Notes: a model not told the origin generated them from the sequence alone. DNA of 64,000 nt from Azolla caroliniana (GCA_043228905.1 JBHGNT010000001.1:15810001-15874000), one strand, 5' to 3'. Shown: positions 8,821 through 57,262, counted from the first letter of the stretch. A program made the numbers and translations.

Positions 8821-9914
8821 AAATTATCGGTTGGTTTAGTTTCTTGTCCGAATCCGGTCGGTTCATCGAGTGTCATCCGGTTACCAGCTAATTTTCGGTT
8901 TTCAACTGAGTAAGTCCTTGTGTCCTCAAACCGGTTTTCATTGGTTGATCCGGAGTCCATCATCTTCTTCTCCGACTCCCACTCGACAATGGTCTTGTCT
9001 TCCATGAAGACTATGTCCCAACTCCGGAACACCTTCTTGTTGACCAGATCCCACACTCGGTAACCGAACTCATCATCATCGTATCCAAGAAATATGCATG
9101 GTCGGGACTTGGGGTCCAACTTTGCTCTCTTGTCCTTTGCGACATGCACATATGCAAGACACCCGAACACCTTCAGATGCCGGTAAGACACGTCTTTACC
9201 GGTCCATACTCTTTGTGGTGTGTCTCCTTCCACGGGTGGTAAGGGTGATCTATTAATCACGTACATCGCCGTCATCAGCGCCTCAGCCCAAAACATCTTG
9301 GATAACTTTGCATGTGCTAGCACACTTCAGACTCTCTCCATTATGGTAGGGTTCATCCGTTCATCCAGACCATTCAATTCCGGCGTCTTCGGCACAGTGA
9401 ATTCGAGCCGGATTCCCTTCGACCGGCAGTACTCCTCAAGCTGCCCCTGGTATTCGCCTCCGTTATCTACTCGAACCGCCTTTAGCTTCCGGTCGGTTTC
9501 CCTTTCCACTCTCGCATGGAGCTCCTTGAAAATGGACAACAGCTGATCCATCGTCTTCAATGGTGAGATCCATAGCTTCCGGCTGTGGTCGTCTATGAAC
9601 ATCACAAAGTACTGCGATCCAACATGTGACTTCATGTCCACTTGACACACATCGGTATGCACCAGCTCTAGTGATGCATTCCGTCTCATCATAGGTCTTG
9701 ACCGGAAGGAGGTTCGGTTTTTCTTGCCGTCCAAGAAATCGGTGCACTTCTCAAGATGCACGCCTTTAACCTCCGAAATGAGGTTATCTTCGACAAGTCT
9801 TCTCATCCCCTTCTGGCTCATATGACACGGTCTCTTGTGCCACAACTCACCGGCAGTGTCGAATGCTATGCTCACTTATTCCCGGCATATCCGAGCATGC
9901 ATTAGATACAACGT

Positions 9915-10582
9915 TGTCGTGGTGTACTTTGTACACTACGTAAAATATGTGTGGGCTACCCAATTGACTAAGTATAAAGAAATAGGAGAAAATACTACAA
10001 TAATTATGTTACATGCATAGGGCAGGATTTGAACCCTATACCTCCATGTTAACGATTTTAAGCCTTACCATTATACTAGCATAGTATGAGTTTTCAAAGT
10101 TATACTATACTTTATCCCATGTAAATATTCTAGATAAGAATGATAGAAAAAGTTATTCATACATACACACTCGAGTTAAATGAAAAGATGTGATAGAAAT
10201 CTAATCATGCACATGTGGTGTGCATGAAAACTAAAGTTAGAAAAGGCATGATGCTTGCATGTGGTAAACTTAGACTCTTCCATCACTATATAAGGAAGAG
10301 AGAAAGGTGTATATGGGGGTTGAATATTTTTTTAGAAAAGGGGATTAACAAACTATACTTGTGCGATTCACAAGTTTTTTATCTCTTTCTTTTCATCTAA
10401 ATTCATATTCTTATCTAAGTGTTGATTAATACACTATACCCGTGGGATTCACGAGGTTTTTATATCTTTTACTTACAACCTATTCACATTCTTATTTGCC
10501 TTGAATTATCCAAACTCCTAGTCCAAAACCCCAGCGGTTCCCACCCGACTCACGCAACGATCCGGCACCGAAAGGCACAATA
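9915..10582 (+). repeat. Solo LTR related to gypsy element B
   Basis: Similar to LTR 36931-37825 apart from the CCGG array; flanked by ACGT (9911-9914) and GCGT (10583-10586); interrupts copia pol. Confidence 0.88.
10020..10080 (-). promoter_or_regulatory. tRNA-like Pol III A/B-box cassette inside an LTR (representative copy)
   Basis: TAGTATAATGG ... GGTTCAAATCC with starts 43 nt apart; similar cassettes at 3668-3726, 24954-25008, 37279-37332, 49607-49660 and 51115-51168. Confidence 0.7.
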
Positions 10583-12039
10583 GCGTGTTGATCTTCCGGG
10601 CTCATGCCACAATTAGGCTTCCCTTGCTGAACTTCATGACTCCGTTCCAAATGCTACCCGTGTAGCCTTCAACCGAACCTTCGGAACATGTCAAAGATCA
10701 TTTAGCAACAACTTGCATCTGGTTAATGTCGTCAACAACACATCTCCTATGCCGATGATTCGGTAGGTCCCTTCATTCCCCATCTGGACACAACCGTGAT
10801 CTCCGGTTGTGTAGGATGAGAAGCATCTCCGGTCCGGTGTCAAGTGGAACGACGCTCCGGAATCAACAACCCACATTGTCTCATCGCCGAAAAGGTTTAA
10901 TTCATTTTCCTCGATGATGAGCAATAGTTCTTCTTCACTTGTCGTGATTGTTGACGTTCCCTTCTGATCCGAGCCTTTCCGGTTCGAACTCTTCCTCAAA
11001 TCGGCACTGTTGGTTCCTTTCTCTTTCCGGAAATGTCGACAGTTCTTTTGGAAGTGCCCTGGTTTCCCAAAATAAAAGCAAGTAGGCCTCCCCCTTGACT
11101 TCGACCTTGTCCCCAACATTTCCCAGTTCTGGGGATTCTGGTTCCAGTTTCTCCCTCGTTGTGTTTTGGATTCAGATAAGGTCTTTTGAGTCAGAGATCA
11201 CTTCCTTGTCTTTCCGATGCACCTCTTCATCTAGCAAGCTCGACTTCACTCTTGCTAGGTGTGAAGTCGATTTTTGCTCGTAAGAAAAGACCGTGACAAA
11301 TACATTCGATGTGAAGGTATAAAAGAATAGAGCATAATATGAAAAGATTCAAGAGTTAAAAGATGAATGAAATTGAATATATATAAAGTTAGAGGCGTTT
11401 TTCAAAGGTAGAAAAAGTAGAAAAAAAGAAAAAGAAGAAAACGCAGGGAAAAAGCAAGGTAGAGAAAAAAGCTCATAACTTCTTCATCTCTTATCGGGTG
11501 GAAGCATGCTACGGTGTACCAGAAAAGTACTGTTTTTGGCCACAAAAATTGTCAGTACTTTCGATACTGTTAGTACTGAATAATTCAGGAAAAAAAATCA
11601 GAGAAAAAAAAAATCAATTTTGGAAGTGGGGTGACTGTAGTACAAGTGTCATTTACTACAAGGAGTGGGGGGAACACGTGAGGAGATGTTCTTTCCATTT
11701 TGGGGGTTGTTTTCCCCTCACGTCGTTTTTGGCGGTTCCCTTCATAATCCTCTTCCTCTATCCCTCTGAGCTCTTCATCTCAAACATCCATGTCACGTTT
11801 ATGCTTTTCCTCCAATCTAAGAGTTTTGTTAGGGTTTAGGGAGCAAATCTCAGACATCCATGTCAGGTTGGAGCTTTTGAGTTGAGGATTTTTGGTTTTT
11901 TTAGGGTTTCTGTTTTTGTTAGGGTTTAGGTTGAGGAACAGAGACTATTCTGAGGCCTCTTATAACAGCCAATATTGACTTCTTCGACAACGACTTTCTT
12001 ACTTCCACCGATTGTAGTTTATGTCGTGGTGATTTGGGG

Positions 12040-12530
12040 CTTTTTCCATCGAGGCGAGGATCCTTCCACCGAATCCAAGCGGCATATCACAAAGATTCAA
12101 GGCGCCCTCCACCATTGGAGGTTCCTTCCACTAAATCAAGGCGGCATATCACAAAGATTCAAGGTGCCCTCCACCATTGGAGGTTGTTTCCAGCAAATCG
12201 AGGCGGCATATCACACAGAATCAATGCTCCTGCCACCATTGGAGATTCCTTCCATCCAATTTTTTATTTTCAGGACTAAATTTTTTCATTTCTTCATTTT
12301 TCAGTACTAAATTTTTAGATTTTACAATTGTCAAATTTGTACATCGTGCTTCCCCCATTGGAGGTTCCTTCCAGCAAATCGAGGCGGCATATCACACTGA
12401 ATCAACGCTCCTGCCACCATTGGAGGTTCCTTCCATCCATTTTTTTATTTTCAAGACTAAAATTTTTCATTTCTTCATTTTTCAGTACTAAATTTTTAGA
12501 TTTTACAATTGTCATATTTGATCTGTAATT
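12040..12530. repeat. Subterminal tandem repeats (about 60-bp units within an about 180-bp duplication)
   Basis: Recurrent CCACCATTGGAGGTTCCTTCCA...GCGGCATATCACA; block 12170-12330 repeats at 12350-12512. Confidence 0.85.
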
Positions 12531-12646
12531 CTAATGTTCGAAACGAATTATTTCTCACTTTGCAGGCCACATTTAAAAACATTTGACTATGTTTTCTTAG
12601 TGTAGTCTATATAACATTAACTACTCTTGCCGGACCCTTAATTTTT

Positions 12647-15600
12647 TTGGATAAATCTAGTGACCAAATGGGGGTCCCCAACGAGAGTGAGTTGTCAAGT
12701 AACTCATGTATATATGAAAGAACCAAGAGACGGGTGGTTCTTCACATAGTTCATTATTTGGTAGAAATAATGAAGAGATTTAGTGAAGAGGATCGTAGGG
12801 ATATTATATGTAGAGTGTTACACCATCAACGTTTGAATGAAGACATGGAGAGAATAAAATTTAGGTACCAATGTGTTTCAGAAGAGATTGTAGAGTCTAT
12901 GAAGTCATCCCTAGACTTAGTGAAAGGTGTAGAGAGCATAGACAAACTTGCTGCAAAGAGGGCAGCCCTACACATGGTTGTGAACGGTGCGAGAGAAAAA
13001 AAATATAGTGATACTAAAGTTGCCTTAGCCCTAGGTATTCAAAGAAGGAACTTGAGGAAACATCACCGAAATATACACTCAAGCCAATTCATGTGGCTGG
13101 GGTTGGGACGTAGACGACGATACGATGCCTTATCTCAAGAGATTATTGAGAAAGTGGATTCATTTTGGGCCAAAAATACGCGTTTCTCACCAAATAAGAA
13201 GGACGTGTGTAGACAACAAATAAGTTAGGGTAAGTACCAGATTCACCCTAGACACTTCTTGGAGATGACAGAGGTATTCCATTTTTTTATATCAATTCAC
13301 ATTCCATAAATTTGTGTTTTGACCAAGTGTATATTAATGTTTTCTATATATATTGGTTGATGTAGGCTGAATTGTACATGAACTTTAAAGACCAACATCC
13401 AAGCTTGACTGTTGGATTCCACAAGTTCCAAGGTTTGAAATCATTTTATGTTAGAAAATTAAATGAGAGGAATACATGTTGTTGTGTGTACCACGTGAAG
13501 ATGGACATGTTAAGGTTAGGAGTGAATGCAATGCGTACTGATTCTAAGGGTATACACGAGGAATTATGTGCCTGCACTTGTGAGGTTTGTAGACCAAATG
13601 GGGAGGATAATAGGTGTAATGCACGAAACATGACTTATGCATCCGTTTCTGAGCTATGGAGGTCTTGTGTTTGTGAAAAAGAACCATCATATGAGTGGCA
13701 TCGTCGTACATGTCTATTAAGAACATGTAAGGTTTGTCCGCTACCATTATTTTGTAGGTAAGAGCTTGATTTGGGAAACAGTCATATTGTGAAATGGAAA
13801 TATTTAGAGTATGTGACTGAAAATATTGGCAAGGGACTTGTAACTAAGTGTATCAAGGAAGTATATAAGGAGACATGTGCTGTTGCCCTTGTCTCAAAAT
13901 TTAAGAAACAACTTGGGGAGTTCATTCCACATAACTTCCGAAGTTATTGGCAAAATTCACAGTTCAAGGAATGTATTAATAACTTACCAACGAGTGTCAT
14001 CGTATCCGTTATTGACTTTGTAGAAAACTATACATTTAAAGTTCAAAATGAGGTTCAATCAATGCATTGGTACAATGATCAATGTACAATACTTGTACAT
14101 ATTTGCTATTGGAGGCAAGACGGTGAGTTACATAAGAAATCAATATTTTACATTTCAGATGATAAAAAGCATGATACACTATTTGTTCAACATTGTTTTA
14201 AGCTTCGCCATGTAGATTTATTGTCTCTAGGGTTAACCTTTAATCGTCATTGGGTTTGGTCTAATGGTGCTGCCTCGCAGTTTAAGGCGACACGATCGTT
14301 CTACTTTATCGCCAGGTAATTTTTAATCCATATGTTTAGTACTTATCATGCAATGTGTAAGGAAGTAATTCTTGTCTTAGTGCATGCATACTAATTATGT
14401 TTGTAACTATTTGAACACAACACTATTCACATGGATGCATGCATACTAATTTTGTTTGTAACTAAGTTAACTATTCTTGATTGATCAAATAGTACTATCT
14501 TGTCACGTGAATCTGTGTTTATTATCTTTTAATCCATGTGAAGCGTTCTCCATAGACACATTGTACTATGTTGTGTGTTGTATCTTTACTAAATCAGTAT
14601 TTACTGAAGAATGTAAAGTACTCGTATTGTACTCTATAGTATTGTCCGTCCTCAAAAGAATTGTACTAATTATCTTTAATCCATGTGAAGTGTTCTCCAT
14701 AGACACATTGTACTATGTTGCGTGTTGTATCTGTACTAAATCAGTATTTATAGAAGGATGTAAAGTACTCGTCTTGTACTCATAGTATTGTCTGTCTTTA
14801 AGAGAATTGTACTAATTATCTTTTAATCCATGCGAAGTGTTCTCCATAGACACATTGTACTATGTTGTGTGTTGTATCTTTACTAAATCAGTATTTACAG
14901 AAGGATTTAAAGTACTCGTCTTATACTCATAGTATTGTCCGTCCTTAAGATAATTGTACTAATTATCTTTTAATCCATGTGAAGTGTTCCCCATAGACAC
15001 ATTGTACTATGTTGTGTGTTGTATCTGTACAATGTTGTGTTTACAAAAGGATGTAAAGTACTCGTCTTGTACTCATAGTATTGTCCATCCTTAAGAGAAT
15101 TGTACTAATTATCTTTTAATCCATGTGAAGTGTTCTCCATAGACGCATTGTACTATGTTGTGTGTTGTATCTGTACTAAATCAGTATTTCCTCAACTTGT
15201 ACTCATAGTATTGACCGTCCTTAAGAGAATTGTACTAATTATCTTTTAATCCATGTTGAGGGTTTTCCATGGACACTGTATTGTACTTTGTGTTGTATCT
15301 GTACTAAAGAAGTAATTATCGAAGGATGTAAAGTACATGTCTTTTACTCATAGTATTGTCCTAGATTGAAGAGTTTGTACTAATTATCTATAAATCAATG
15401 TTGAGTGTTCTCCATGAACACACTGTATTGTACTTGGTGTTGTATCTATACTAAATCAATAATTATCGGAAGATGTAAAGTACATTTCTTGTACTCATAG
15501 TACTGTCTTATATTGAAGAGTTCGTACTACTTATCTATTAATCCATGCTGAGTGTTCTCCATGAACACATTGTATTGTACTATGTGTTGTATTTATACTA

Positions 15601-16945
15601 AATCAGTGTTTATTGGGGAATGTGAAGTACATGTGTTGTAGTACTAATTATCTTCTAAGGAGGGTTGTGTTCTCTGTGGACACATTGTACTGTATTGTGT
15701 ATTGTATTTGTACTAAATCAGTATTAATGAATGTAAAGTACTCGTCGTCAGCAACATAGTACTATCTGATATTGAAGAGTTTGTACTATTTATCTGTTAA
15801 TTCATGTAGAGTGCTTTCCATGAATTCATTGTACTATGCTTTGTGTTGTATCCATACTAAATTAGTATTAATGGATGCCAAGTTCACATGCTTGACAACA
15901 TAGTACTATTTATCTTTTAATAAGTGTAGAGTGTTCTCAATGGATACGTTGTGCTATGCTTTGTTTTGTATTTGTACTAAATCAGTATTAATGGATGTGT
16001 AGTACTCTCGATTGACAACATAGTACTAATTTTGTTGGAAACCTGAGATACAAAAGTAGGTATTTCTCCTTATTCAACATTCATATGCAATGGAACTACT
16101 TCGGGTTTGGACATGGAAAAGGAGAGCATGATGGCGCGGGGGCTGTGATCAAACGTGCCCTTACAAGTGAGCAGTTGGATAATAATGGTGCTAAGTTACA
16201 AAATGCACATGATGTTGTGCAGTGGCTAACATGGAAGATGTCAAATGATGGTAAGAACAGATTGTTTGTTGAAGTTCGCGCTAATGAGGTTGATAAAACT
16301 AAATCATATGGTTGTAAAACCGTGAAAGGCACACGTAGCACCCATTGTGTATTAGGGTTTAGCCGCAAGGACACAACACAATTGTTACTCCGTACTTTAT
16401 CGTGCTTTTGTTCCATGTGTATAGATGAAGCTTGGGATAAATGCATCAACCTATCAATCGTCGAGCCCTGGAAGTTGCAGAAGCTTGAGCCTGAACGACA
16501 AGATGATATTGAAGAGGATGCACATTCAAACGATATTGTATACTACAACCAACATCAAGACTTGGCAGTTTTATTGGAAGTTGGAGATCATTTTGCAGTG
16601 CTCAAATCTCCTCAGAATGAAGATTTAGAAGACAACTACATTGTGGTGTGCAAGCAAGGCAAGACATTATTGAAAGAAGTGGTGACAGATGGTTGGGGCA
16701 ACAATTTCAACCTTGGTGAGTCTGTCATGTATGGAAACTATTATGCAAAGTTGCCGCAGTGCAAGAACACATATGCATTACTAAAAGAAGCACTGATCGC
16801 AATAATCTACGTTGATGCCATTCTTGCGATCAAATTCAATATGACTCAAGCAAAGCACAAGGTTAAGGGATACAACACTGTCTACAAGGTCCCCCAAGAG
16901 GTTCATGAGCACATATTAGGAGAGATCTCTCTATTTAATGCTTGA
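12647..16945 (+). pseudogene. Spliced DDD/E-type transposase with Cys-rich insert and premature stops
   Basis: Motifs IDFVENY..QNEVQSMHW, SDDKKHD, WSNGAASQFK, GHGKGEHDGAG, SCFCSMC. In-frame GT-AG introns at 13274-13365 and 14316-16059; stops at 13226 and 13759. Start codon uncertain. Confidence 0.85.
14505..16030. repeat. About 147-bp tandem repeat array (about 11 units) in transposase intron 2
   Basis: Anchor AATCCAT at 14531, 14678, 14825, 14972, 15118, 15248, ~15393, 15540; units diverge rightwards. Confidence 0.95.
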
Positions 16946-19493
16946 AAGTCACCCTATCAATACATTGTACCAGAAAACTGAAAAATATCCACTTGTAGTT
17001 CACTATTTGATGTATTGATATATTAATTTTGATGATTGACAAATGAATCGATATAATTCCTCTTTCTTCTATTATGTATTATGAATCAATATATTTGATG
17101 TATTGAGACTATTTATTGAGCTTGTATTGTAAGTGTTTATGGTAATTATAGAGTTGCTTGTTTCCATGGTTTAAGGTGTGAAGTCTTCAATACTTTTGTA
17201 TTGTCAATGTTTATGGTAATTATAGAGTTGCTTGTTTCTATGGTTTAAGGTGTGAAGTCTTGAATACTTAGTAGCTTAAATATGGCCCAAACTTATTCAA
17301 CTATCAAGTCTCTATTGTGTGCACTCAAGTCATTATTCAACTCTAACCATGTGCACTCAAGGAGACCATACTTCGCAAGTATCAATATACATATTAGTAC
17401 TAACGCAAGTATCAATATACATATTAGTTTAGTAGTAATGTCAATTGCAAGTATGTCAATTGCAGTCTCCCAATGTCAATTGCAAGTATTAAGTAATACA
17501 TAGTAGTCTCCCAAAGTATCTCAGTTAGACGGATACATACATCTAATGTAAAGTTTGGTTGCATGACAGTATATACCAGTCTTCTAAATCTTCATCTGGT
17601 ATAACGAACTATATATAACATCTCAATTAACAATATAGAATTTTATTTGTAATCAACACAATCATGGCTACATGGGAGTGTACCTGGGAGTGCATCGGAA
17701 GAAAACTCACCCATGTCAAACACATACCAATTAAAAACAGACAGACAGGAAACATAGAGAAAATGAAAACATACCAGTTGGGATGCAACACATAGACTAT
17801 GAATAATCAAAACCTAAAAATGCCCATACACATACAAATTAAAACCAGACAGACAGGAAACACAGAGAAAACGATAACATACCGGTTGGAGGCAGATGGA
17901 GCCAAGGTCAAAGGCAGAGGTACCACACCTTCGGAGCACACCAAGCCTTCAAAATCACCTATATGCAAGAGGTTGTTGACGAGGCTGCTGCAGAGGAGAC
18001 AAACGAGCATTAACAGAGGAGACAAACGAGCATACACAAGGAAAGAAAATCAACAACAAGAACATCAATCCGGGGAAACAGAAATCTCTTTATATACAGA
18101 GACAGAGATCGAACCTGGCACAGAGGGGAACACAACAACAACTACGCGGGGAAACAGAGAATCGAAGGGGGAGTGAGAGAGAGAAACAGAAAGAAAGAAA
18201 GAAACAAAGATTCAAAGGTGGAGTGAGAGAGAGAAAGAGAGAGATAGGTAATAGATATGTGTTGTCTTTCTAACTTTCTGCCTCTGTCTGTCTGACAACT
18301 TCGAGACAAAAGAGAGAGAGACTGAGACTGAGACTGACCAACTATCACATTCCAAACCTTCTCCAGGTGTGCTTTCGTACAACTCTACCTAGGAGAATGA
18401 AGTTACAATTAATGTATTAAATATGGCCTTGGGACATTTCGAGTGTGACATATATTATCTTTGTACATTCGAGTGTGACGTAATGAATTTGTTATTTGAA
18501 ATTGAACACCATTCAATAGATGATAATTGTTTTATTTTCAATTTTTAATGTTTATTTTCTTCCTCGATTTAGTACTAAATTTTTGGCCAAAAGTTGGTAC
18601 ACCGTAGCATGCTTCGACCCTATCCAAATTTCAAAAGAAAAGATTCATAAGAAAGCTGACAAAGGGAGCTTTCTTATATGAAAAATTTCGATGACAAACC
18701 AGAAATAATGATATAAAAAATGCATCACATAAACTCGAGCATATGTAAAAAGAAAAGAAAAGAAAAAAACAAGAATAACACAACTAAAAATCTATAAATA
18801 TGAAGGTATTCTTAGCAATTGGGAAGAGGAAGGAAGAATAGAAGATCTACAAGAGAAGGAGGGAGTAAGAAGAGAATATCTACAAGAAGAAGGGAGGAAG
18901 AATAACAGGGCTAGAAGAAGTGAGAAGAAGCTTAGTAGAAGAAAGGGTGACGAAGAAAAGACTATTTTCAATTATTGTCATTGAGGTTAGAGTAGAGTTA
19001 TTTGGGGTTGTTATTTGTAGAGTCTAAGAAGATGATATTGGTTTCCTAATAGTGTATTGAAGTATTTTTTTCTCTTCCTCTACTCTCTTCTCTATCTTTT
19101 TCCTCGCTCTCATCATCACTAGGGATAATTGCTTTCCTTCTGGCCCGGCGTTGGCCAAAGTGACAACTAGCGTCTCCCATCTATCCGGAAGGGAACCGAG
19201 CAATAGCAACGCAAGTACCTCATCGGCCAGAGGTACATCCAACTAGGTGGCTCTCTCTTATAGTATAAACTCTCTTTCCATTTCTAGTGTTCTCTCTCTC
19301 TCTCTCTCTCCCTCCCTCTCTCCCTCCCTCCCTCTCTCTCTCTCTGTATACCTTCTATCGTTATCTTATCTTTGTCTCTCCTATTCTCAAGTCTCGACAG
19401 TTTGAACCGAATATCTCTCGTTTCTTCTTCTCCAACTTCTTCTTCTTATTTTAACCTTATTTCAAGAAAATCTAGCAACTTTCTCTCGTAACT

Positions 19494-20471: not shown

Positions 20472-20599
20472 CAAGTTAACCAAGTAAATGCTCATGACAA
20501 TCCCATCTCAATTTCTGCCCCGCCTTTTCGTAACCCAAGTAGGCCTAGTAGTCCCTGTCATTAAAATACATTTGATGTCTTGAGCCAATTAGATGATGT

Positions 20600-23500
20600 G
20601 TTAAATGAGTAAGTCCGGCCAAAATCGGAGCCATTTGGTTGGACAGCCCTAGGCATGTAACGTCCATCCCTAGTTGTGGTTCCATTTCATCCGGTCAAGT
20701 TAGTCGAGTTTTCTCTGCACAAGTTGAGCTTAACACATCAAGGTGCCATCGAGTCCCAGCTTCTGCCCTCTTAGACTCTGGAGCCAACTCTTGTTTCATG
20801 GATCGTGAGTTTGTTGTAATGCATAATATTCAATTGCATAAGCTCCCAAGCCCAGTGTCTGTCGGAGTCATTGATGGACGCCCCATAGCATCAGGTGATA
20901 TAGTTGAAGAGTCTGAACCAATTCGTGTAGTCCTAGGCAATTTGGCTAATGTCATCTCATTCAACATCATTAGTAGTCCAGAGCACTCCCTAGTTCTTGG
21001 TCTTCCATGGTTTGAGCTACATAACCCAACTATTGATTGGAGAAAAAGAACCATTGAAGAGGTCACAATACAGTATGAGTCACTTAAAACTCCAACAAAG
21101 GATATGACATTCCAAAAGATTTCGACAATCTCTATACATCAGTTACGTGAGGAAGGACGGAAGGAAGACATGTTGGTGTTCGCAGTTTTAACAACTCCCA
21201 CATCGAGCTCAAGAGGATCGGGGGTCCAACTACGAAAGAAATATATAGAATTCTCCGATGTGTTTGATAAGGTGAAGGCCAATATGTTGGGAGATAGGTC
21301 CCTCCGGATGGGAAGGGAGAAGAACAGTGCTGATGAACAAACTCTGCCGAGGCCGAAACCGTATGAGGAGTCCCGGGCTACGGAGAGCCGGATGGTGCAG
21401 ACCCGGTGAGAACCGGATGAGGAGTACCCGGCTACGGAGAGCCGGATGGTGCAGACCCGGTCAAGACCGGATGAGGAGTACCCGGCTACGGAGAGTCGGA
21501 TGGTGTAGACCCGGTCAAGAACCGGATGAGGAGTACTCGGCTATGGAGAGCCGGATGGTGAGAGTCCATCATGGCTATATTTGTAAATAGCCGAAAAGTC
21601 ATATTAGTATAAATATGACTTAGGGCAAACTTTTAGTTGTGGGTTGTCATTTTCTTGTTGGTGTAAGCAGAGAGTGTGTGTAACAGTGTACAGAGAGCGA
21701 GAGAGAGAGAGGAAGAGGTCGTTGCCTCTGTTGTAACCGCCGCCTGTGGCGAAGATCGTGAGCACGAGGTCATTGCCTCCGTGAACTCACTGTTGTACAT
21801 TCTAACATAGTGATAGTTTGCAGCCTGTGGGCTGCCGTGGTTTTTCCCTTAGTTTGGGTTTTCCACGTAAACATCCTGCGTACTCTTCTCTTCTTCGTGT
21901 CGTGCTTTATTTCCCGTTTTCTGTGTATGATTCTAAGCTCGGTTGTGGCTGAGCGTTGTGTATAACGAGCGTTTAGTTCCCGTCAACACAATAGACTACC
22001 AAAGCATCGACCATATGATTGCCCGATTGATTTGAAACCTAGAAAAGAGCCTCCATGGGGGCCAATTTATAACCTTTCGCCCACGGAGCTAGAGGTTCTT
22101 CGAGAATATATCGATGAGAACTTGGTGAATGGGTTTATCCAGCATTCAAGATCTCCTGCCGACGCACCCATATTTTTCGTTAAGAAGAAAGATGGTTCGC
22201 TTCATCTGGTCATGGATTATCGAGGATTGAATAAAGTAACTATTCGAAACCGATATGTTCTACCATTGATTTCAAGCCTTCTGGAACGCCTCAGTGTTGC
22301 TAAGTATTTCACAAAGTTAGATCTTCAAGGTGCTTACAATCTTGTTTGAATTCGTCCTGGGGATGAATGGAAGACTGCTTTTCATACTCGCTATGGCCAT
22401 TTTGAGTATACAATGATGTCATTTGGTCTCACGAATGCACCAGCAGTTTTCCAACATATGGCAAATGATATTTTTCGAGATTTCCTCGATATTTTCATAA
22501 TAGTTTACCTGGATGATATCTTGATCTACTAAAAAACTCAAGAGGATCATGACATACGCGTTCGACAAGCTTTGCAATGGTTGCGTGAATATGGTCTCTA
22601 TGCAAAATTGGAGAAGTGCAGTTACGACCAGCGTCAAGTGGAATTTTTGGGGTACATAGTCTCTTCACATGGCATCTCTATGGATCCAGCAAAGGTTCAA
22701 ACAGCTTTGGATTGGCAAACACCACAGTTTGTGCGAGATGTACAATGTTTTTTGGGGTTAGCAAACTTTTATCGCAAGTTCATCAAAGATTATTCAAAGA
22801 TCGTATTGCCCCTCACTCAACTGACACAAAAGATTCGACCATTTGTTGGAGTATAAATGAAAACTCTGCATTTGAAGTATTAAAGCAAGCATTTACATCC
22901 GCACCAATTTTGATGCATGTTGATCCATTGAAGCACATTATACTCGAAGTTGATGCATCCGACTTCGCACTAGGAAGCGTATTATCCCAGATTAGCAATG
23001 ATGGCCAACTGCACCCTATGGCTTTTCATTCATGGAAATTCGAAGCTGCTGAAATCAACTATGAGATTCACGACAAAGAGCTTCTTGCGATTGTGGATTC
23101 TTTTCAACAATGGCATCATTTTTTGGAGGGTTCGTCTCAACAAATCATTGTCTATAATGATCACCAAATCTAACATACTTCCAAAGTGCTCGAGTCTTGA
23201 GTCATCGACAAGCTCATTGGGCGCAGTTCTTAACTCGTTTTGATTTCGTAATTCTATATTGCTCTGGGACGCAACAAGGAAAAGCAGATGCTTTATCTCG
23301 GCATTCATATATGGAACTTCAACCAGGCGAGGCCGCATTTGAAAGTCAGAAGCAAATCCTCTTGGGTCCTAACCATCTACGACTAATGGCATTTCATGCT
23401 ATAGACACACCCAGGGATTCAAGTCTTCTGGACTCCATTTGGGAGCATATTGAGACTGATGAATTCGCCCAAGACATTCTGAACCATATTATCCCAGATC

Positions 23501-25302: not shown

Positions 25303-25351
<49 letters not shown>

Positions 25352-25884: not shown

Positions 25885-25930
<46 letters not shown>

Positions 25931-27385: not shown

Positions 27386-27982
27386 TCTTCTTCTAGTTGA
27401 CTAAGGATTTCAAATTTGTTTGAAAGGCTTGGGCTATTAGGACTTTCGAACACACCTAGAGAGATAGACTCGGGTTTGGTACTATTAGTACTAGCGGTTA
27501 TTTGATTTACCTACATTCTTGGCCAATGGGAACAGTTCACTGCAATATGCCCCGGTCCACCACAATAAAGAATTAATTGATTTGCTCGGTGTCGTTGCTT
27601 TTCTTCTTCCGTTAGTGGTCCACGACGACGTGTCGTGTCAATTTCCATTGGATTCGGAGTATTTGTTGGAGACGTATTAAATGACTCCCTTGGGAAAGGC
27701 TTTGCTACAACTGAAGCATAGGTGGGCTCCGATCTTGCCCTCGACATTTGAAACTAACGTTCCGAACGTCATTCGAAGAGGCAGTTATCGCATCGTACTG
27801 CGCGACTGATTGCTTCTATCAATGACTTTGGTTCTTCGGGGAAAGTCAAGAGTAAATCCTTGACATCGTTACATAGGCCATAATGAAATTGCTCCATTAA
27901 TGCTTGGTCATCCTAGGGGATATCGAAGGCGAGTAGACGGAAATCTACAGCGTATGTAGAGGCTGGATGGTCACCTTAACGT

Positions 27983-36900: not shown

Positions 36901-36926
36901 GCCTAGGGACGGTTTTCTCCACGACA
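27983..36926 (-). mobile_element. Non-chromovirus Ty3/gypsy element A (TGTCG...CGACA ends, FLDD RT)
   Basis: 3' LTR 27983-28667, 5' LTR remnant 36759-36926, PPT 28668-28680; PR ALVDHGSE, RT PFLDDIPIKG, RH ADMLSR, INT WFGPY; flanked by ACGT on both sides. Confidence 0.9.
33936..36758 (+). mobile_element. 3' half of a copia family-1 element (INT end, RT, RH, 3' LTR 36072-36758)
   Basis: LYVDDML and CDN motifs; PPT GAAGGGGGAG. Inserted in the 5' LTR of element A, with a deletion junction near 33936. Confidence 0.92.
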
Positions 36927-38347
36927 ACGTTGTCGTAGTGTAATTCGCACACTACGTGAAAAATTACATTTTTGGTTTCTCCGGATAGGATATGGAGTAC
37001 CCAGTGAGAACCAGAAGGAAGAACCGGTGAGGACCGAAACCGGTAAGGAGACCGGCAAGAGCCGGATGAAGAAGGCCAGTGAGAGTCGGTGAGAAACGGA
37101 CGAAGAGGGCCGGTAAGGAGGATCCGGTAAGAACCGGATAAAGAAAACCGGCGAGAACCGGATGAAGCAGAACCGGCAAGAGCCGGATGAAGAAGGTCAG
37201 CAAGAGTCTCTCACCAGATGAAGAGACATATTTGTAAATAGAAGAAAGTATAAAATTATATATTACATGCATAGGGCAATATTCGAACCTTGCACCTCCA
37301 TGTTAATAATGTTAAGCCTTATCATTATACTAGCGTATTATGAATTTTAAAGTTATACTAAACTTTATCCCATGTAAAATTTCTAGACATGCATGGTACA
37401 AAAAGTTATTCATGCATAGACACTCGAGTTAAAAAGAAAAAGATGAGATAGAAAGCTAATTATGCACATGCAGTGTGCATGAAAACTAAAGATAGGAAAA
37501 GCATGATACTTGCATGTGATAAACTTAGACTCTTCCAACACTATATAAGGAAGAGAGAAAGATGTATAGAGGTTGTTGATTATTTTACAAGGGTTGATTA
37601 ATGTAATATAATCGTGGGATCCACGAATTTGCTAACTATTTTTCTCTCTTAATTTGAGTACTCACTAATACACTATACTCGTGGGATTCATGAGTTTTTC
37701 ATATCTTTCTTTCTTACAATATATTTCACATTCTTAATTGCCTTAGAATTTTCTTTCCTCCTAGTCCAAAACCCTAGTGGTTCCCACCCGACTCACGTAA
37801 CGATCCGGAGCCGAAAGGCACGACACAAGTCGTGAACCCAACGTGAAAACGGGTGGCAAGGAGATGGAAAATCAACCGGAGGCGAACAACATGATGATGA
37901 TGTTCGAGCGGATACTTCAGGAACAACGTGTGATGTCGAAGATAGCGGCGGTAGTAGAGCGGCTCATGCAACGGATCGGGCAATTCAACGGAAAGGACGT
38001 ATCACGCTATCTTCGGGACTACAAGGCGGAAATGCTACGGTGCGGGATTTCGAAAGGAATGCAAGTGGCATCCTTCAACCGGGTGGCTATCGACAGGCTT
38101 CAAGCAAGTATCCACGGGCTACGACAACAAAATCCGACGTGGGAAGCATTTGAAGAGGCGCTAAAGAGCACGTTCGCTATCGAGGACTCTTCCAAGGCAA
38201 TGCAGAGAGGATTCGAGGATTGGGTAGAAACGCTGGACAAGGGGATGAAGGTCCTCGATATGTTTTTGGCATTCAAAAGTCGGTTCGGGAGGTTGTCGGC
38301 GAGAGATCAAGCTATCCTCGCACTGGACAAAGTTATCATGTTCTTAC

Positions 38348-43794: not shown

Positions 43795-44940
43795 CTTACG
43801 AGCGGTAGACGTCCGGGACCAGAAGGATCTTGGAGTGCTTCTAGAGGACACTAATACCGAGAGTGGCCTCACCGAAACATGGGAAAGCATGCAGGATATC
43901 GTCGCACGATACACAAAGAGGGGGCAATGGCTTGCCAACGAAGGAAAGAGGGTTTCAGAACCAATTCCGAAACCAAGATCCGGATCGGAAGACCATCAAC
44001 CGCGGGCTCGGGAAGCTACGATTGAGAAGGGAATCGACACAACTACGGTGGAGCAGTTGCTGAAGGAGATGGAGAATCTAAAAATCGCGATGGTGAAGAA
44101 GTCGGATGACCGTCCCATAAGTTCCAAGTATATGAACCGTCGATGCATATGGTGTGATAGCACCGAACATGATCAGAGGGATTGCGACGAGCACAAGGAA
44201 GCACTACGACAGGATCTTATCTGCTACGAGGGAAATCGAATTCATTCGATTGACTCTCGGAAGCCGCTCTGACCGAACTTCCGAAAAGGCGGCATGAAGA
44301 AGGTCCTAGAGGAGGAAATAGCGGCGAAGAGCGATTACGTGACAACCGCGAGAATACGTGTCGGGGAGTCATCAGGAGCAAAGGTGTCTTTTTGGCCGAA
44401 AGTGCTAGAAAACACCGAGAAAACCGACTCTAACGAGATCCAAAGCACCGCGGAAGGCATCCGGGAAGCTACGGATGGGAGTGCCCCGTCGATAAGAATA
44501 GCGTGTTTGCTTTATGCTAATTGCATGAAGTGTATGTAGATGAGAAGCGACAGCGCACGGCTGAGGCGGCCGGTCCATCGAAGACACCGGAAAGCTGGAA
44601 AAGAAAAGATGATTCCGGCATTCAAGCTCGCCTCGGACATCGAACAACAAACGGACTTGAAAAAGGTGTTCGAGGAGAGAATCCTCGATAGCCGGGTAGA
44701 TTTTTCGCTTCGAGAATTACTCGGAATAGCGAAGAAGGAGTTCCACGATCTTCTTGTGGATCTCGTGAAGAGAAAAAGGCAAAGTACGGAGGAGAACGCT
44801 CCAAGGGTGAATGCAAATACCATTCTAATGAAGGACACCAAATTGGAGGACGAAATACCGAATTCTCACTACACAAAGCCACACTGGGCACGCGCAACTA
44901 TGGAGACTCCGGTCCAAATCGGTAACATCAAAGAACCCGT

Positions 44941-45070
44941 TGTCGCGTTGTTACGCGCGTGCGTGGAGAAAGGCGGGACCACGGGGGTCTTGGACCAGGG
45001 AGTGACGGAGCGTAGGAAGTCGTGCTTCACCGTTTCCGGGGAATCCCAGAAGGACACCGGAAGCGACCGA

Positions 45071-45107
<37 letters not shown>

Positions 45108-45720
45108 TTAACACCGACTCACGCACACACACGCACACACACACACATGTCGGCCCGACTCACGCCCTTATGTACAGGAAACGCAGGAAAGAGGAAGCAC
45201 CCGACACCAACAGAGACGCAGATATACACAGACAGACGCAAACGTATATATATATAAAAGAAGAATACATTCCCGGCGTCGAGCCGGACCGAGGTAGGTT
45301 ACAGTAGTCGTCAACTGCCAAGCCACCGGTCGGGGAGCTCACGGGCTCGTCGCGCCGAGCGGGGTCTTGCGCAGGAGATGAGCTGAAGCAAACCCTAAGC
45401 GAACACGAAGGGGGGAGAAGAAGAAGAAGAAGAAGAAGAACCTAACTCTAAACCTAACGGTATACCCTCTAATGCAAAATGGGCAACCCTTTCACAAAGG
45501 GCGTTCCCTTCCTTTTATAGAACAAGGAAAGGGATGCGTTACAATGTGGGATAAATCCCGACTTACATGGGATTGTCTGTCCCGACTTGACTACTCTTCG
45601 GCGCCATAAAGGCACCCTCGTTATTCGCACTAAATGTACATGGGTGCGTACACACGTTGCACCCCGCCGATGTAGCCAATGTTTCCCGGTTTCCGCCTCT
45701 GGCCGAAATTCTTCACGACA
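44941..45720 (-). repeat. Solo LTR related to element A
   Basis: Shares the terminal TGTCGCGTTGTTACGCGCGTGCGTGGAGAA with 27983; ends CACGACA; 4-bp TSD CCGT at 44937-44940 and 45721-45724; splits protease EPV|LALIDHGSE. Confidence 0.92.
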
Positions 45721-46115
45721 CCGTGCTAGCATTGATTGATCACGGATCAGAGATCAACTTGATGTCCAAGGAATTCTACCGGAAGGGGTAAGTGGCCTAT
45801 TAACACGAATCATGGGTGGAAGATCCGGGTGGCCACTAAAGCAACGGAAGATCTATTTGTGGCTTGTCCGGATGTGACGATGAAGATCGGGGATGTCGAG
45901 ATCGACCAAAATTTCTTCGTACAAGACGAGGTCTCACACTCCGTGATCCTCGGGCAACCCTTTATCACGGCATCACGGATGGAGACGAAGGTGCTCGATA
46001 GCGGTGCGGCTTTTGCGCGAATTCGGAGCCAAAACGGAGGAAAATCCGTCCAATTCCTAACGGTGCCGGCAAATCAGGAAAGGAACAAGAGAGAGCTCTT
46101 GTCCCAAACAAGAAT

Positions 46116-46179
46116 GGATTTTTAGAACGGATTGTTGTGAAGTGGGGAAGTGATAGTACGAGAAGCCCTGATACCCCAC
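46116..46179 (+). promoter_or_regulatory. Predicted -1 ribosomal frameshift signal (G_GAT_TTT plus pseudoknot)
   Basis: Heptamer directly before the gag-PR stop; the -1 frame is open into RT; conserved in element A at 32135-32200. Confidence 0.75.
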
Positions 46180-49100
46180 ACAGGAAGAAACCTCTCGATG
46201 CAAAACAAGTACGAATCGGTTCGGATGGGGCATCCACGTACATGGCCGTAACCGGAGGAATGAAGAAAGAATACCGAAAAGTGGAGGATAAGTTACGGTC
46301 GGCATCAATAATAAAAGAAGACGAAGAAATCGTGGGAATAGTCGAAGAAGTGTTCTATGGGAGCACACTACAACGGCTTGAAGAGCTCGCGGAAGATACA
46401 AGCCAGGGAGACCAGGTAGTCCCGGTGGAATCGGTCGAGATGTACGAGTTCATTGTGAAAATGGGGCCGGATGTGCTCTGCAAAGAAGAAGCAATGGTAA
46501 GTACGAAATACAAGACCGTGGAGAAGAAAGGGAAACCGGCCGCGGGACCGTTACCCGCAGATAGCGAACAAAAGAGGAAAGAAGTCGGTCCGATAGTGGA
46601 CGAATTTGCGGAAGCATTTGCCGGTCGCGTGATATACTCCATCGGAGACCTATACTCCAGATATGACCAATTCCAACTAGCTGTGAAGAGCCGACACATC
46701 ACTACCATGCGGACACCGATAGGATTAGTCCGGATGTGTAGGCTACCACAAGGCGTGACGAACTCAGTCGCACATATGATGAATGCGATGAACAAGGTGC
46801 TCCGGGATTGCATATCGGAGATAACAATGTCGTTCCTAGATGACATTCCAATGAAAGGATGCGCGGTAGAAGAAAAAGATGAAACTATGGATGATCGGGG
46901 ATGCCGAAAGTTCGTAGTCGACCATATTCGCGATTGCGAGAAAGTGCTTCGAAAGTTAGAAGATGTGCACCTAACACTTTCCGATGAGAAATCGGCATTC
47001 GGGCAAGAAGAAATATTGGTAGTCGGACATCTATGTGGGCCCTACGGCCGAAGACCGTCATCAACCAAGATCAGCGCGATTCAAGCTATGAAAGAAGTAT
47101 GCGAGTCACAATCTGAAGTTCAAAGGTTTCTTGGAGCATGTGCATTCTACCACATATGGATTCCACACTATGCACATATAGCGGACCCACTCTATCACTT
47201 GTTGCGGAAGGGTAAGAAGTTTGAATGGAAACCGGAGCATACCAAAGCCGTGAAGAAGCTCAAGAAATCACTATGGAGGGCAAAAGCACTAAAGAAGCCG
47301 AACTATGACCAACGATCATAGTAACAGTTGACACAAGTCCAACCGGAATCGGATGGGTCATTAATCAAGCCGATCCAGAAGGTTCACGATATCCGATCCG
47401 ATTCGGAGCAAAGGTTCTCAACGAAAGGCAACGCGGATATGCACAAGTTAAAAGAGAATTATGGGGAGTCGTGTCGGCAATCAAATCGGATCGAGATTAT
47501 TTGATCGGAGCCGAAGCAGTGATCGAAACGGATTGTCTTCCAATACTTGGGATGATGCGGTGTTGCACGATACCGGATGTGGCTATGCTAAGATGGATTG
47601 CATATGTTAAGTCGATTAATCCGGAGGTACGACACATCTCCGGAAAAGACAACGCGGTAGCGGATATGTTATCAAGGGCGCGGTTCGGAGATAACATAAC
47701 TGAACCCGATAATGAAGAAGTTTCGGGAGCACATATGCCGGGTGAACGTAAAATCCGAGAATTCCGGGAAGAAGAATACGAGGGAGAAAGCTTGCTGATT
47801 GGGAAAGTGCTACAAGAAATCAAGGAATCATCGGACAATAAAAAGAAGGGAGCCGAGATCCGAAGTAAGAAGCGGCAAGTCCGAAAGTTCTTCCTGAAAA
47901 ATGGATTACTATGGAGGGAGCCGAAAAGACCGGATGGCATACCACTTCGAATAGTCGGGACGAAAGAGCAACGAAACCGGATAATGTCCAAATTTCACGA
48001 ATCCGATTGGGCTGGACATCGAGGAACATGGGCAACTTTTGTGAAAATCAAACAAAAATATTGGTGGAAGAACATGTACAAAGATATAGTGGAGTTCACG
48101 GAAAGCTGCGAGAAGTGTCAAATCTACTCCGGAGTTCGACACCGAGATGAGTTACATCCGACATTCTCACCAACAATCAACTTCAAATGGATGGTCGATA
48201 TTGTAGCCATGCCAACCGAGATCGGACAAAAGAAGTACTTGGTGTTAGCTCGGGAAGATCTCACAAACCAAGTAGAAGGTCGGGCGCTACGGAGGAAAAC
48301 GTGTTCTACGGTATGCCAATTCCTTTTGGAAGAAGTGTTTTGCAGGTACGGGTGCATAGGACAAGTGATTGCGGATCAGGGAGAACTCGACTCTGATAAA
48401 GCTAAGGAATTCTTCACTAAACATGGAGTTCGTTTAACACTGACAACGGCATACAATCCGGAAGCCAACGGGAAGATCGAACGAGGACATAGTCCGATTG
48501 TCAAAGCACTTGCGAAGGCATGCGATGGAAGGGTGAAGGATTGGTCGTAAATGCTTCCGTATGCACTATGGGCGGATCGGATGACGCATAGCTCCGTAAC
48601 CGGTTACATGCCGGCAGAACTCATGACCGGATAAGCACTGGTAATGCCAAACGGAAACCGCAATCACGACATGGACAGTGCTACCTTGGAAGGAAGAGAT
48701 GAGCCGGGAAGAACTACTAGCAGTCCGGATACGACAACTAGAGGGAAGACCGGAAGACATAGCGGAAGCAATACGCCGACAACACGAAGCGTGATTCCGG
48801 AATAAAAGCCGATTTGACACAAAGCACCGACTACGACCGCGGAAGATTGAAGAAGGAGATTGGGTGATTGTCTACGACAGTAGTTTGGATCATCAACATA
48901 CAACGATGCGGAAGTTCGCGAAAAGTTGGTTTAGGCCATATGAGGTTCGGAAAGTTTTCGACAACGGAACTTACCGACTATGCGAGTTGGATGGAACGAC
49001 ACTACGAGTGCCTATAGCCGGGAAACGGGTGAAGATTTTCAAGAAGCGGACTGAAGAAGAACCCTATGTGATCCTAGACAAGACCGACAAAAAGGAGCAA

Positions 49101-51183
49101 TCGGACGAAGATCGCGGTGATGCGGAAAGCGAGGAAAGTGGATTACAACTCATAGTTGACTTAAGGGGAGAATTGGAGGAAGCTTCGAATGAAGGTGAAT
49201 AGCAAGCATCGGGGACTTCGGCACATACCGGAGGATGTGCGGATTCGGAGGGGGCGAGTGTCGTAGTGTAATTCGCACACTACGTGAAAAATTATATTTT
49301 TGGTTTCTCCGGATAGGATATGGAGTACCAAGTGAGAACCAGAAGGAAGAACCGGTGAGGACCGAAACCGGTAAGGAGACCGGCAAGAGCCGGATGAAGA
49401 AGGCCGGTGAGAGTCGGTGAGAAACGGACGAAGAGGGCCGGTAAGGAGGATCCGGTAAGAACCGGATAAAGAAAACCGGCGAGAACCGGATGAAGCAGAA
49501 CCGGCAAGAGCCGGATGAAGAAGGCCGGCGAGAATCTCTCACCAGATGAAGAGACATATTTGTAAATAGAAGAAAGTATAAAATTATATATTACATGCAT
49601 AGGGCAATATTCGAACCTTGCACCTCCATGTTAATAATGTTAAGCCTTATCATTATACTAGCGTATTATGAATTTTAAAGTTATACTAAACTTTATCCCA
49701 TGTAAAATTTCTAGACATGCATGGTACAAAAAGTTATTCATGCATAGACACTCGAGTTAAAAAGAAAAAGATGAGATAGAAATCTAATCATGCACATGCA
49801 ATGTGCATAAAACTAAAGATAGGAAAAGCATGATGCTTGCATGTGATAAACTTAGACTCTTCCAACACTATATAAGGAAGAGAGAAAGATGTATAGAGGT
49901 TGTTGATTATTTTACAAGGGTTGATTAATATAATATAATCGTGGGATCCACGAATTTGCTAACTATTTTTCTCTCTTAATTTGAGTACTCACTAATACAC
50001 TATACTCGTGGGATTCACGAGTTTTTCATATCTTTATTTCTTACAATATATTTCACATTCTTAATTGCCTTAGAATTTTCTTTCCTCCTAGTCCAAAACC
50101 CCAATGGTTCCCACCCAACTCACGCAACGATCCGGAGCTGAAAGGCACGACAACGTAATCATCGGATTTTGTTGATTGTTGTTCTGATGCTATCAGTATC
50201 TCCAAAACAGGCTTTAAACTCACTTATAAACTCCTCAAAATTGTTTAGTAATGGAGATTTCTTTTTTAACAACGGAGTGAACCATGCCAAAGTTGAGCCA
50301 CTTAACAACGTGCCTACTAGACCCACTCGTGATGCATCGGTGGGATATCAGGAAGGATGCATTTGAATGACTAATCATACCTGATTAATGAATCCTCTAA
50401 ACTGTGATCGCATTCCATCGAATTTCATAGGAAGGTCGATCTTGGGTTCTTTATGAATCCCTTACATACTTGGTCCTTGTTGTTGCAACGCTACAATGGT
50501 CGCTTCAAGCGGTTGCACGCGTAACGCTAGTTCCCCATGTTGTTGTTGCGTTTGGTGCTTTTATAAGGTGATTTGTTGAAGATCCCCCAACAGTCGTTGA
50601 TTTTCTTGTTCCAATGCAAGAAAATTCTCTTTCAAGCATTGCAACTCCGAGAAAACGGATTGATATTCTTGAGCACTAGTGGCCATAGTATGAGAGAAAA
50701 GAGGAATAAGATATTAGTATGAAGGGAGGGAGAAGTAAGAAGATAAAAGGAAGAGGCAAAAGGAGAAAATTCGGTTCAAACTGTCAGGGATAGTACTGAG
50801 ACAAAGAGGAGATTAGTACTAAGAGATGAAGATTAGTACTAACAGGAAAAGAGGGTGTAGAACACAAGAGAGAGAGAGAGAGAGAATGATGATGACAACA
50901 GATATATTATGTAGAAAGAATATACAAGGATAGTTAGGAGGCTTAAGACTGGCGTTAAACCGATTTGGTTCAAAATAATGCCTTGTGCCTCCTTATATAG
51001 TGTTTTCAGGAGTACTCCTAAAGTTTCTAAAATGTTCTAGAGAAATCTAGAATATACATCAATTTTCTATAGTCAAATAATAAATGAAAATAATATCCTT
51101 CATATTACAATGTATAGTCTAATGACAAGGGCTCGACCCATATAACATAAGGTCATGGGTTCGAATCTTGCCATATCATGATA

Positions 51184-55197: not shown

Positions 55198-57162
55198 GCA
55201 AAGGCAGAGGAGGTGGACTCGGCCCATCTTATGAAGGGAATTCAAACCCTTAGAAAGGAGATGGAAGCCTTCAAGGAACCTTCAGAAGAAGGGGGAGTTC
55301 CCATCCTGAACAAGGTCTGCAAAGCAAACCATTTACCTGCAACTATTTTGGGAAGATTGGCCACACCGGAAAAAGGAGTGCCAAAGGAAGAGAAAGGAGT
55401 CGACTTCCACAAGGCGACAACTCACAAATTACGCCACCAACTCCGAATACGACAACTATGGTGGATTGTTCGTCATGCACATTAAGGCTAACTCTATGTC
55501 AGCATCTGACTCCACTAGCACCTCCAATTCGGAAGACATGTGGTTCATTGACTCCAGCGCCTCAAATCATATGATGTCACACCAAGAATGGTTTTGTCGC
55601 TTAAGAATGTCGGATCGTCCCGGCTACATAGACACGGGAGACAACACCACACATCCTATTGGGCACATTGGCAACGTTCCATTCAGAAAAAATGGCATAA
55701 ACAATTGCATCAAGAATGTCTTGCAGGTTCCTACAATAACAAATAATTTGGTCTCGATCAACCAAATCGTGGAGCAAAGCATGCAAGTCCATTTCAACAA
55801 CGGAGTATGCTTTATAGAAAAGAATTGGACCGACTCATAGCCATAGGAAGAAAAGAAGACTGGATGTTTATTCTTGATTCGAACGAGGTAAAATCGGCCA
55901 TGTATGCCAAAGGTCTCAAGGTGGAGACAAATATAGAACTGTGGCACAAGAGAATCTGCCACATCAACCTCCAATAGCTTCGAACGATGCAATCAAAGGG
56001 AATCGTCATCGAACTTCCAGCATTTGAGTCAAAACAAGTGATTGAGTGTGTGAAGCATGTCAACTCGGCAAACAACGCAAATTTCCCCTTCCAAAGGAGA
56101 GCTACATAAGCAAAGGCCTCCTCAACATGATCCACTTGGATGTATGGGAACTGGCTCAAACACCGACGATCGGAGGATGCCGTTATTACTGTCACCTTCA
56201 TCGACGACCACTCGCACTACACATTGATCTTCCCGATGAAGAAGAAGAGTGAAGTGCTCTCACACTTCCAAAAGCTCAAGAGCCAAGTCGAAAAAGAAAC
56301 TAGACGACATATTTGATGCCTACGATTGGATGGAGGAAAGGAGTACTTCTCCGATAAATTCATCTCCTATCTCCAAGATGAGGGAATATGGAGAGAATTT
56401 TCATGTTGACACACACCCCAAAAAAATGGAATAGCTGAAAGGAAGAATTGACATATACTTGAGGTAGCATGTGCCATGTTGCATGAGAAGCACATGTCGA
56501 CCTTCTATTAGGTTGAAGCAACATCCACAACTTCCTACCTTATGAATCGGTGCACCACTAATGGAATGCATGAGCTAACTCCATATGAGATCTTTGTTGG
56601 AAGGAAGTCGATCCTTTCGCACGTAAAATTATTCGGAAGTATTGTGTATGTTCACATCCCGAACAAAAAACGGTAGACGCTCAACCCGAAGTCAGAGAAA
56701 TGTATCCTCATAGGATACTCGTCTAAGCAAAAGGGGTACAGGTGCTTCAACCCTTCGACCCGAGCGGTTCAGGTAAGTCAGAACGTAATCTTTGATGAAT
56801 CAACATCATGGTATGAACCTGATTCGACTCCATCCGAATTGACTGAGGAAGAGTTGGACGTCAATACGGATGACAAAATTTAGCCGAGGCATGTACCTAG
56901 TGGAAGTTCAAGCTCAACCATGATGAGTGGACCACATGAGCCTCCAAACATCGAAAGCATATCTTGACCAAGGGGCCGGATCGGACAAAGGCAAAGGTAA
57001 GATGCTCGAATATGAAGTCAACCACCCCAACGAAAGTAATTCAGATGTGTCAACTCCATCGCTCGATAGTGAGTTTGGTGTACCCGTTATGCGGATACCC
57101 GATGTAAAGAAGGTGCTGACATCAACAAATGAAAAACTCTGACGCTTGTCTAGAGAGAACGG
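55198..57162 (+). pseudogene. Decayed copia family-2 gag-PR-INT fragment
   Basis: WFIDSSASNHM, WHKRICH, CEACQLGKQ, LDGGKEY; many stops. Confidence 0.9.
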
Positions 57163-57262
57163 TGTCGTGAAGAAAACCGTCCCTTAGCGCAATCGGTGCA
57201 TAGAGCGCGTGAACCGGCTCTTCACACGTGCGCGCCCTTTAATGTATATAGTAGAGAATTAG
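57163..57262 (+). repeat. Start of an element-A-family LTR, interrupted by a copia insertion
   Basis: TGTCGTGAAGAAAACCGTCCCT matches the reverse complement of the A LTR end at 28646-28667; preceded by ACGG. Confidence 0.8.

What the first reader, a model, noticed from the sequence alone, without database searches (positions are those of the whole stretch)
9911..57166. Gypsy lineage with 4-bp, CpG-centred target sites
Seen: insertions with TGTCG...CGACA-type ends have TSDs ACGT/GCGT (9911, 10583), ACGT (27979, 36927), ACGT (36927, 50153), CCGT (44937, 45721) and a left flank ACGG (57159). All five have CG at positions 2-3. The copia and other solo-LTR insertions here show 5-bp TSDs without such a pattern (CTAGG, CAATA, CTTAC). 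The integrase has no chromodomain. Inference: sequence- or methyl-CpG-directed integration that steers the lineage into other TEs.
Basis: partly seen in the sequence, partly recalled or inferred. Interest (0 to 1): 0.8.

Follow-up and report, generated by a model that had tools for sequence, protein, structure and literature searches.

The report
Plant jumping genes that target CG
These plant jumping genes insert at four-base sites centred on CG, a habit already published for the moss 'Phygy' group that they likely belong to, and their integrase likely reads the CG itself; whether it senses methylation is untested.

Summary
In detail: five LTR insertions at four independent sites have 4-bp flanks with a central CG (ACGT/GCGT, one ACGT shared by two tandem elements, CCGT, and a lone ACGG). 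Three control insertions have 5-bp TSDs without CG. The trait is lineage-wide: 10 of 13 candidate external LTR ends in related contigs are NCGN. It is not new. Neumann et al. 2019 define the non-chromovirus clade Phygy with '4 bp (100%) (NCGN)' TSDs in 186 elements, and Phygy is already reported from ferns. These elements fit Phygy on TSD, lack of chromodomain and aRH, and (by recall) a tRNA-Trp primer site; clade membership could not be tested against a labelled reference. The best mechanism is direct sequence and bend readout by the integrase. Methyl-CpG sensing is untested, and steering into TEs is not shown, since control insertions are nested too. New details: sites avoid T first and A last (14 of 14), and the integrase core is one residue short, likely at a target-contacting position. 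The scan earlier noted NCGN TSDs in another genome and a Phygy-like nest in this one.

The parts
9911..9914 (.). left TSD ACGT of solo LTR A
9915..10582 (+). A: solo LTR, 81% like C's LTR, inserted in a copia pol; right end decayed to CAATA
10583..10586 (.). right TSD GCGT of A (1 mismatch)
27979..27982 (.). ACGT, first of three copies, in a chromovirus gag
27983..36926 (-). B: gypsy element. 3' LTR 27983-28667, polypurine tract from 28668, integrase core 29243-29872, 5' LTR remnant 36759-36926 cut by a copia; LTR pair 7.1% diverged over 168 bp
36927..36930 (.). ACGT shared by B and C (head-to-head junction)
36931..50152 (+). C: gypsy element, LTRs 36931-37825 and 49259-50152 (2.1% diverged), 6,986 bp net of nested inserts; DUF4100 (below cut-off), RT, RH, integrase
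37830..37847 (+). primer binding site of C, same motif in 6 related contigs; tRNA-Trp identity recalled, not from a call
47309..48550 (+). RNase H and integrase frame of C; catalytic D-x34-E spacing
49247..49258 (+). polypurine tract of C
50153..50156 (.). ACGT, third copy
44937..45724 (-). D: solo LTR 44941-45720 of the B subfamily with CCGT TSDs, inserted in C's own gag-protease region
57159..57262 (+). E: ACGG flank plus the first 100 bp of a B-type LTR, cut by a copia; host is a copia
11260..19118 (.). control: TG...CA element with 5-bp TSD CTAGG, in a copia
21285..21988 (+). control: copia-type solo LTR with 5-bp TSD CAATA, in a chromovirus pol
38348..43794 (+). control: copia element with 5-bp TSD CTTAC, in C's gag

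Best explanation
These are non-chromovirus Ty3/gypsy retrotransposons, likely of the Phygy clade, that insert with a 4-bp duplication centred on CG, and their integrase likely picks the site by reading and bending the CG step itself, with no need for methylation. Shown: 4-bp CG-centred flanks in three subfamilies, no chromodomain, a core one residue shorter than usual. Inferred: a 4-bp stagger needs a sharp kink at the central step, as in foamy virus intasomes; base contacts then narrow the general pyrimidine-purine bias to CG and exclude T at the first and A at the last position. Candidate determinants (inferred) are the shortened loop after the second catalytic aspartate and a conserved loop of the C-terminal domain. 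Any bias towards young, CG-rich TEs would be a side effect of CG density.
For: 4 of 4 independent window sites and 10 of 13 probe-defined external LTR ends in 38 related contigs are NCGN; CG is only 20% of YR steps, so flexibility alone does not explain it. 14 of 14 CG sites lack first T and last A; P 3e-5 given NCGN frequencies, post hoc; the same exclusion is reported for 4-bp retroviruses. Phygy: 186 elements, 4 bp, NCGN. PFV intasomes are the top sequence and fold matches. D-x34-E in 107 of 120 homologues, none matched the x35 pattern; the gap scores best at the third position after the aspartate, where PFV has Ala188. Precedents: ZAM integrase binds and nicks near CGCGCg on plasmid DNA; Ginger1 transposases give CCGG or CCGT/ACGG 4-bp TSDs.
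Against: No labelled Phygy sequence turned up in three protein searches (best 120, 25 and 120 listed), so clade membership rests on features. C's net length (7.0 kb) is below the moss range of 7.7-10.0 kb. Gap placement margin is slim against the chromovirus (46.5 vs 44.7) and one copia family here also has D-x34-E. PFV Ala188 contacts bases outside the TSD, not the central step. TE CpGs here are decaying (6 of 36 in C's LTR pair), so most targets were probably methylated and the two models are not separable by these data. Related contigs were fetched by the pol gene, some are collapsed repeats, and one counted end (L008:2943) has no longer LTR homology.
Confidence: 0.65

Rival explanations
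1. The integrase prefers or requires 5-methyl-CpG at the target centre, which would confine the lineage to silenced DNA without a chromodomain.
For: All window sites lie in TEs, and TE CpGs here show deamination decay (6 of 36, 5 of 15, 2 of 21, 12 of 41 in four LTR pairs). Phygy was enriched in liverwort centromeres and found nested in Tcn1 in moss. Recalled, no call: CpG methylation made hot spots for avian retroviral integration in vitro.
Against: No methyl-binding domain at E<=0.1; the tail after the last conserved motif is short and acidic (median 37 aa in 94 of 120 homologues). Control lineages are nested as well. ZAM shows CG-rich target choice on plasmid DNA.
Confidence: 0.15
2. The elements are a separate 4-bp, CG-targeting lineage next to Phygy (or TatI-like), with the same readout mechanism.
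For: No named Physcomitrium protein among listed hits; shorter than moss Phygy; TatI also has 4-bp TSDs and a tRNA-Trp site; another genome in this scan had NCGN TSDs (unchecked).
Against: No aRH domain in the intact pol, which TatI has in 100%; Phygy is the only plant lineage Neumann lists with a TSD motif; Phygy is reported in ferns and liverworts, where the named homologues come from.
Confidence: 0.12
3. A host factor that binds CG-containing DNA tethers the integration complex, and the integrase cuts next to it.
For: Tethering is common in LTR elements (Ty3 with TFIIIB, passages).
Against: CG sits exactly at the dyad of the staggered cut, where the intasome itself holds the DNA; no wider flanking motif is evident in the flanks.
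Confidence: 0.07
4. Chance or a boundary-calling artefact.
For: Only 4 independent sites in the window; motif chosen after seeing the data.
Against: Gap-free empty-site alignments; independent replication, 10 of 13, P 8e-10 at the highest local CG frequency; published for 186 elements.
Confidence: 0.01

Closest known systems
Phygy clade of non-chromovirus Ty3/gypsy (Neumann et al. 2019, PMC6317226; abstract, passages, section 15, supplement file 3 read)
   Same: 4-bp TSD, NCGN motif, no extra polyprotein domain, no extra ORF seen, compact gag-pol, primer site that I recall as tRNA-Trp.
   Different: Host is not shown to be Physcomitrium (named homologues are fern and liverwort); C is about 7.0 kb net; the motif here is narrower (no first T, no last A); the integrase loop feature is not mentioned in the parts I read.
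Ginger1 DNA transposons (Bao et al. 2010, PMC2836005; passages)
   Same: Gypsy-type integrase, TGT ends, 4-bp TSDs CCGG (75%) or CCGT/ACGG (24%).
   Different: DNA transposons with TIRs in animals; ACGT is the commonest site here.
ZAM of Drosophila (Faye et al. 2008, PMC2527525; abstract and passages)
   Same: LTR retroelement whose integrase itself binds a CG-rich target.
   Different: 6-bp consensus CGCGCg plus a second binding site; different lineage.
Retroviruses with 4-bp TSDs: PFV, MoMLV, PERV, XMRV (Serrao et al. 2015, PMC4422553; passages and section 6)
   Same: 4-bp stagger, central YR step, T and A disfavoured at first and last TSD positions.
   Different: Their YR enrichment averages 63% over background and is not CG-specific; here CG is near-obligate.
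TatI and Selgy (Neumann et al. 2019)
   Same: Non-chromovirus, 4-bp TSD; TatI has a tRNA-Trp site.
   Different: TatI has aRH, absent here; Selgy is about 5 kb with a tRNA-Ala site; neither is listed with a TSD motif.

Membership tests
Phygy | RT, RH and integrase cluster with P. patens Phygy | not testable with these tools
   REXdb FASTA too large to read; no named Physcomitrium hit listed. The tree has no labelled Phygy and no outgroup.
Phygy | 4-bp TSD | tested here: met
Phygy | NCGN target motif | tested here: met
   4 of 4 window sites; 10 of 13 related ends
Phygy | PBS for tRNA-Trp (81%) | tested here: inconclusive
   Conserved TGG-starting site in 6 related contigs and a variant in C; its complement occurs in plant small-RNA papers (listing only); Trp identity is recalled, searches did not confirm it
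Phygy | No chromodomain, no aRH, coding region fills the interior | tested here: met
Phygy | Length 7.7-10.0 kb (descriptive range in moss) | tested here: inconclusive
   C is 6,986 bp net and interrupted; the relative L002 is a collapsed contig
Ty3/gypsy | Order gag-PR-RT-RH-INT between LTRs with PBS and PPT | tested here: met
Chromovirus (Tcn1, Galadriel) | Chromodomain after the integrase | tested here: not met
   integrase only 25% identical to the window's chromovirus
TatI | aRH domain | tested here: not met
   no extra RNase H hit in L002 pol at E<=0.1
Selgy | About 5 kb, tRNA-Ala PBS | tested here: not met
   length about 7 kb exceeds the 4.4-6.7 kb range; PBS type by recall

The most novel reading that the evidence does not exclude
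Phygy integrases read methylated CpG directly at the centre of the cut, through a lineage-wide shortened core loop and a conserved C-terminal loop. They would be retroelement integrases that find silenced DNA by the methyl mark itself, with no chromodomain, across moss, liverwort and fern.
Probability: 0.15. Interest if true: 0.75.

Novelty: new member of a known kind. Interest (0 to 1): 0.25.

Why it matters
The headline trait has been in print since 2019, so the finding is mainly a rediscovery. What it adds is modest: the CG rule holds outside the moss, in three subfamilies whose integrase cores differ widely (C 93%, B 62% identical to L002), and there is a concrete candidate residue position to test. 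Phygy is the one plant LTR lineage listed with a target motif, and I found no mechanistic study of it (searches; open-access library only). If methyl-CpG sensing were true it would be a new targeting route and a possible methylation-sensitive insertion tool.

Tried and rejected
No whole genome is held, so no genome-wide TSD logo. An LTR-end pattern found 0 matches in viral contigs. Laying contigs of 4 runs on the whole 3' LTR showed no rows at the junction. Laying 2 runs on a 58-base stretch gave depth falling only 2-fold per two bases across ACGT and then 13- to 20-fold, and 70 and 49 contigs with unrelated tails after ACG or more; this agrees with NCGN, but the 85% likeness and length thresholds favour such contigs and 33 rows were hidden, so I do not count it as a measurement. 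Three protein searches and a cluster look-up gave no labelled Phygy. PBS identity was not confirmed by Rfam, ARAGORN or papers. GingerRoot has 6-bp TSDs without a motif and is not a precedent. The P. patens TE paper had no target-site or methylation passages. L010:192 (ACGG) and L003:597 (CCGT) look like further CG ends but were missed by the probe scan and are not counted. The AlphaFold model (pLDDT 79.5) confirmed the fold only; residue-level overlay on PFV was not available. A rule of re-using old TSDs was rejected: 0 of 10 CG flanks in related contigs run into another LTR start.

Full report
Observation. The window is a nest of plant LTR retrotransposons; no whole genome is held. Five insertions begin TGTCG. 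A is a solo LTR at 9915-10582 with ACGT/GCGT flanks in a copia pol. B (27983-36926, minus strand) and C (36931-50152, plus strand) lie head to head as ACGT-B-ACGT-C-ACGT in a chromovirus gag. D is a solo LTR at 44941-45720 with CCGT flanks in C's own gag-protease region. E starts at 57163 after ACGG and is cut by a copia; its other end was not found. A scan of TSD lengths 3-8 gives 4 bp for A (1 mismatch), B, C and D, and 5 bp for the three controls CTAGG, CAATA and CTTAC. Flanks with one copy of the 4-mer align without gaps across the junction to paralogous empty copies. There are 4 independent sites; CG makes up 3.3-7.1% of positions in the hosts, so 4 of 4 has P of 3e-5 or less (post hoc).

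Replication. A pol search of metagenome contigs gave 38 loci. Sixteen terminal 24-mers, defined without looking at flanks, were scanned over all 38. After setting aside ends next to a PBS or PPT, 13 remained and 10 are NCGN (P 8e-10 at CG 0.071). Of the other 3, L017 is a PBS stub at a contig end, L038 is a 17/24 probe hit, and L003:333 (ACAG) is a real but decayed LTR end whose flank falls on the arginine codon of a conserved copia motif, so it is likely a decayed CG site. One of the 10 (L008:2943) lacks longer LTR homology. Some contigs are collapsed repeats and all were fetched by pol, so hosts are biased. CG ends occur for C-type, B-type and L010/L011-type LTRs, which are distinct branches in the integrase tree (31 rows, no outgroup). 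All 14 CG sites (4 window, 10 loci) avoid T first and A last, though only 48% of the window's NCGN 4-mers do. Contigs of two public runs laid on C's 3' end agree qualitatively, but thresholds bias that read-out and I give it no weight.

What it is. C and the intact relative L002 have gag with DUF4100, protease, RT, RH and integrase, a PPT, and a conserved PBS. There is no chromodomain, aRH or methyl-binding domain at E<=0.1. Named homologues come from Adiantum and Riccia, so the host is likely a non-seed plant. Neumann et al. [quoted passage not shown] Their per-element table and FASTA could not be read and may already show the narrower motif. Phygy's 4-bp TSD is also in PMC6911290 (passages); Phygy is reported from ferns (PMC13477047, passage) and a liverwort (PMC12885004, passages). 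I recall the PBS here as complementary to plant tRNA-Trp, but no call confirmed it. Clade membership could not be tested against a labelled sequence; on features I put it at about 0.85.

How it likely works. The integrase's best sequence and fold matches are foamy virus intasomes, then Ty3. In retroviruses with 4-bp TSDs the target is kinked at the central step, YR is favoured, and T and A are disfavoured at the first and last positions (PMC4422553). That fits the geometry here, but CG is only 20% of YR steps, so base-specific contacts are needed as well (inference). Two candidates: 107 of 120 homologues have D-x34-E, with an acidic residue after the DRG motif in 113 of 113 that cover it, and the missing residue scores best at the position of PFV Ala188 (slim margin against the chromovirus, and a copia family here has the same spacing); and a conserved loop in the C-terminal domain. 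ZAM (PMC2527525, abstract and passages) and Ginger1 (PMC2836005, passages) show that gypsy-type integrases can carry CG-centred or CG-rich specificity.

Methylation and steering. CpGs in LTR pairs decay fast (6 of 36 in C against 2.1% overall divergence), so TE DNA here is probably methylated by default and cannot separate the models. All 3 control insertions are nested in TEs too, so the window gives no sign of special steering. A CG requirement would favour CG-rich young elements such as C's interior (7.1%) as a side effect.

Verdict. Real, lineage-wide, and already described. I found no study of the mechanism or of the motif outside moss in searches (one search listed 40 of 110 papers; open-access library only). 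New member of a known kind; interest 0.25.

Noticed in passing
window 36927-36930: Two elements of different subfamilies sit head to head sharing one ACGT; the younger likely re-used the older one's TSD copy.
   Followed up: partly
window 36988-37240 and 49319-49568 versus 38432-38612 and 43183-43363: C's gypsy LTRs carry about 100-135 bp of CCGG-rich repeats 75-81% like those in the copia LTRs nearby; solo LTR A lacks them. Possible exchange of LTR sequence between superfamilies.
   Followed up: no
window 11501-18615: A DNA transposon-like insert with 21-bp inverted ends and a 147-bp tandem array (14450-16030) lies inside the CTAGG element; its long ORFs had no Pfam hit.
   Followed up: no
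window 48374 and L002 integrase residues 156-191 of the model: Lineage-wide D-x34-E spacing with an acidic residue after DRG; one copia family in the window (40733, 63576, 9467) also has x34.
   Followed up: partly
L006:258, L026:188, L028:1020, L032:2141: Four more insertions of this lineage into the pol of its own lineage; ascertainment by pol search inflates this.
   Followed up: partly
window 51200-52610: A region with broken coding potential between LTR elements; the ORF 52093-52599 has no Pfam hit.
   Followed up: no
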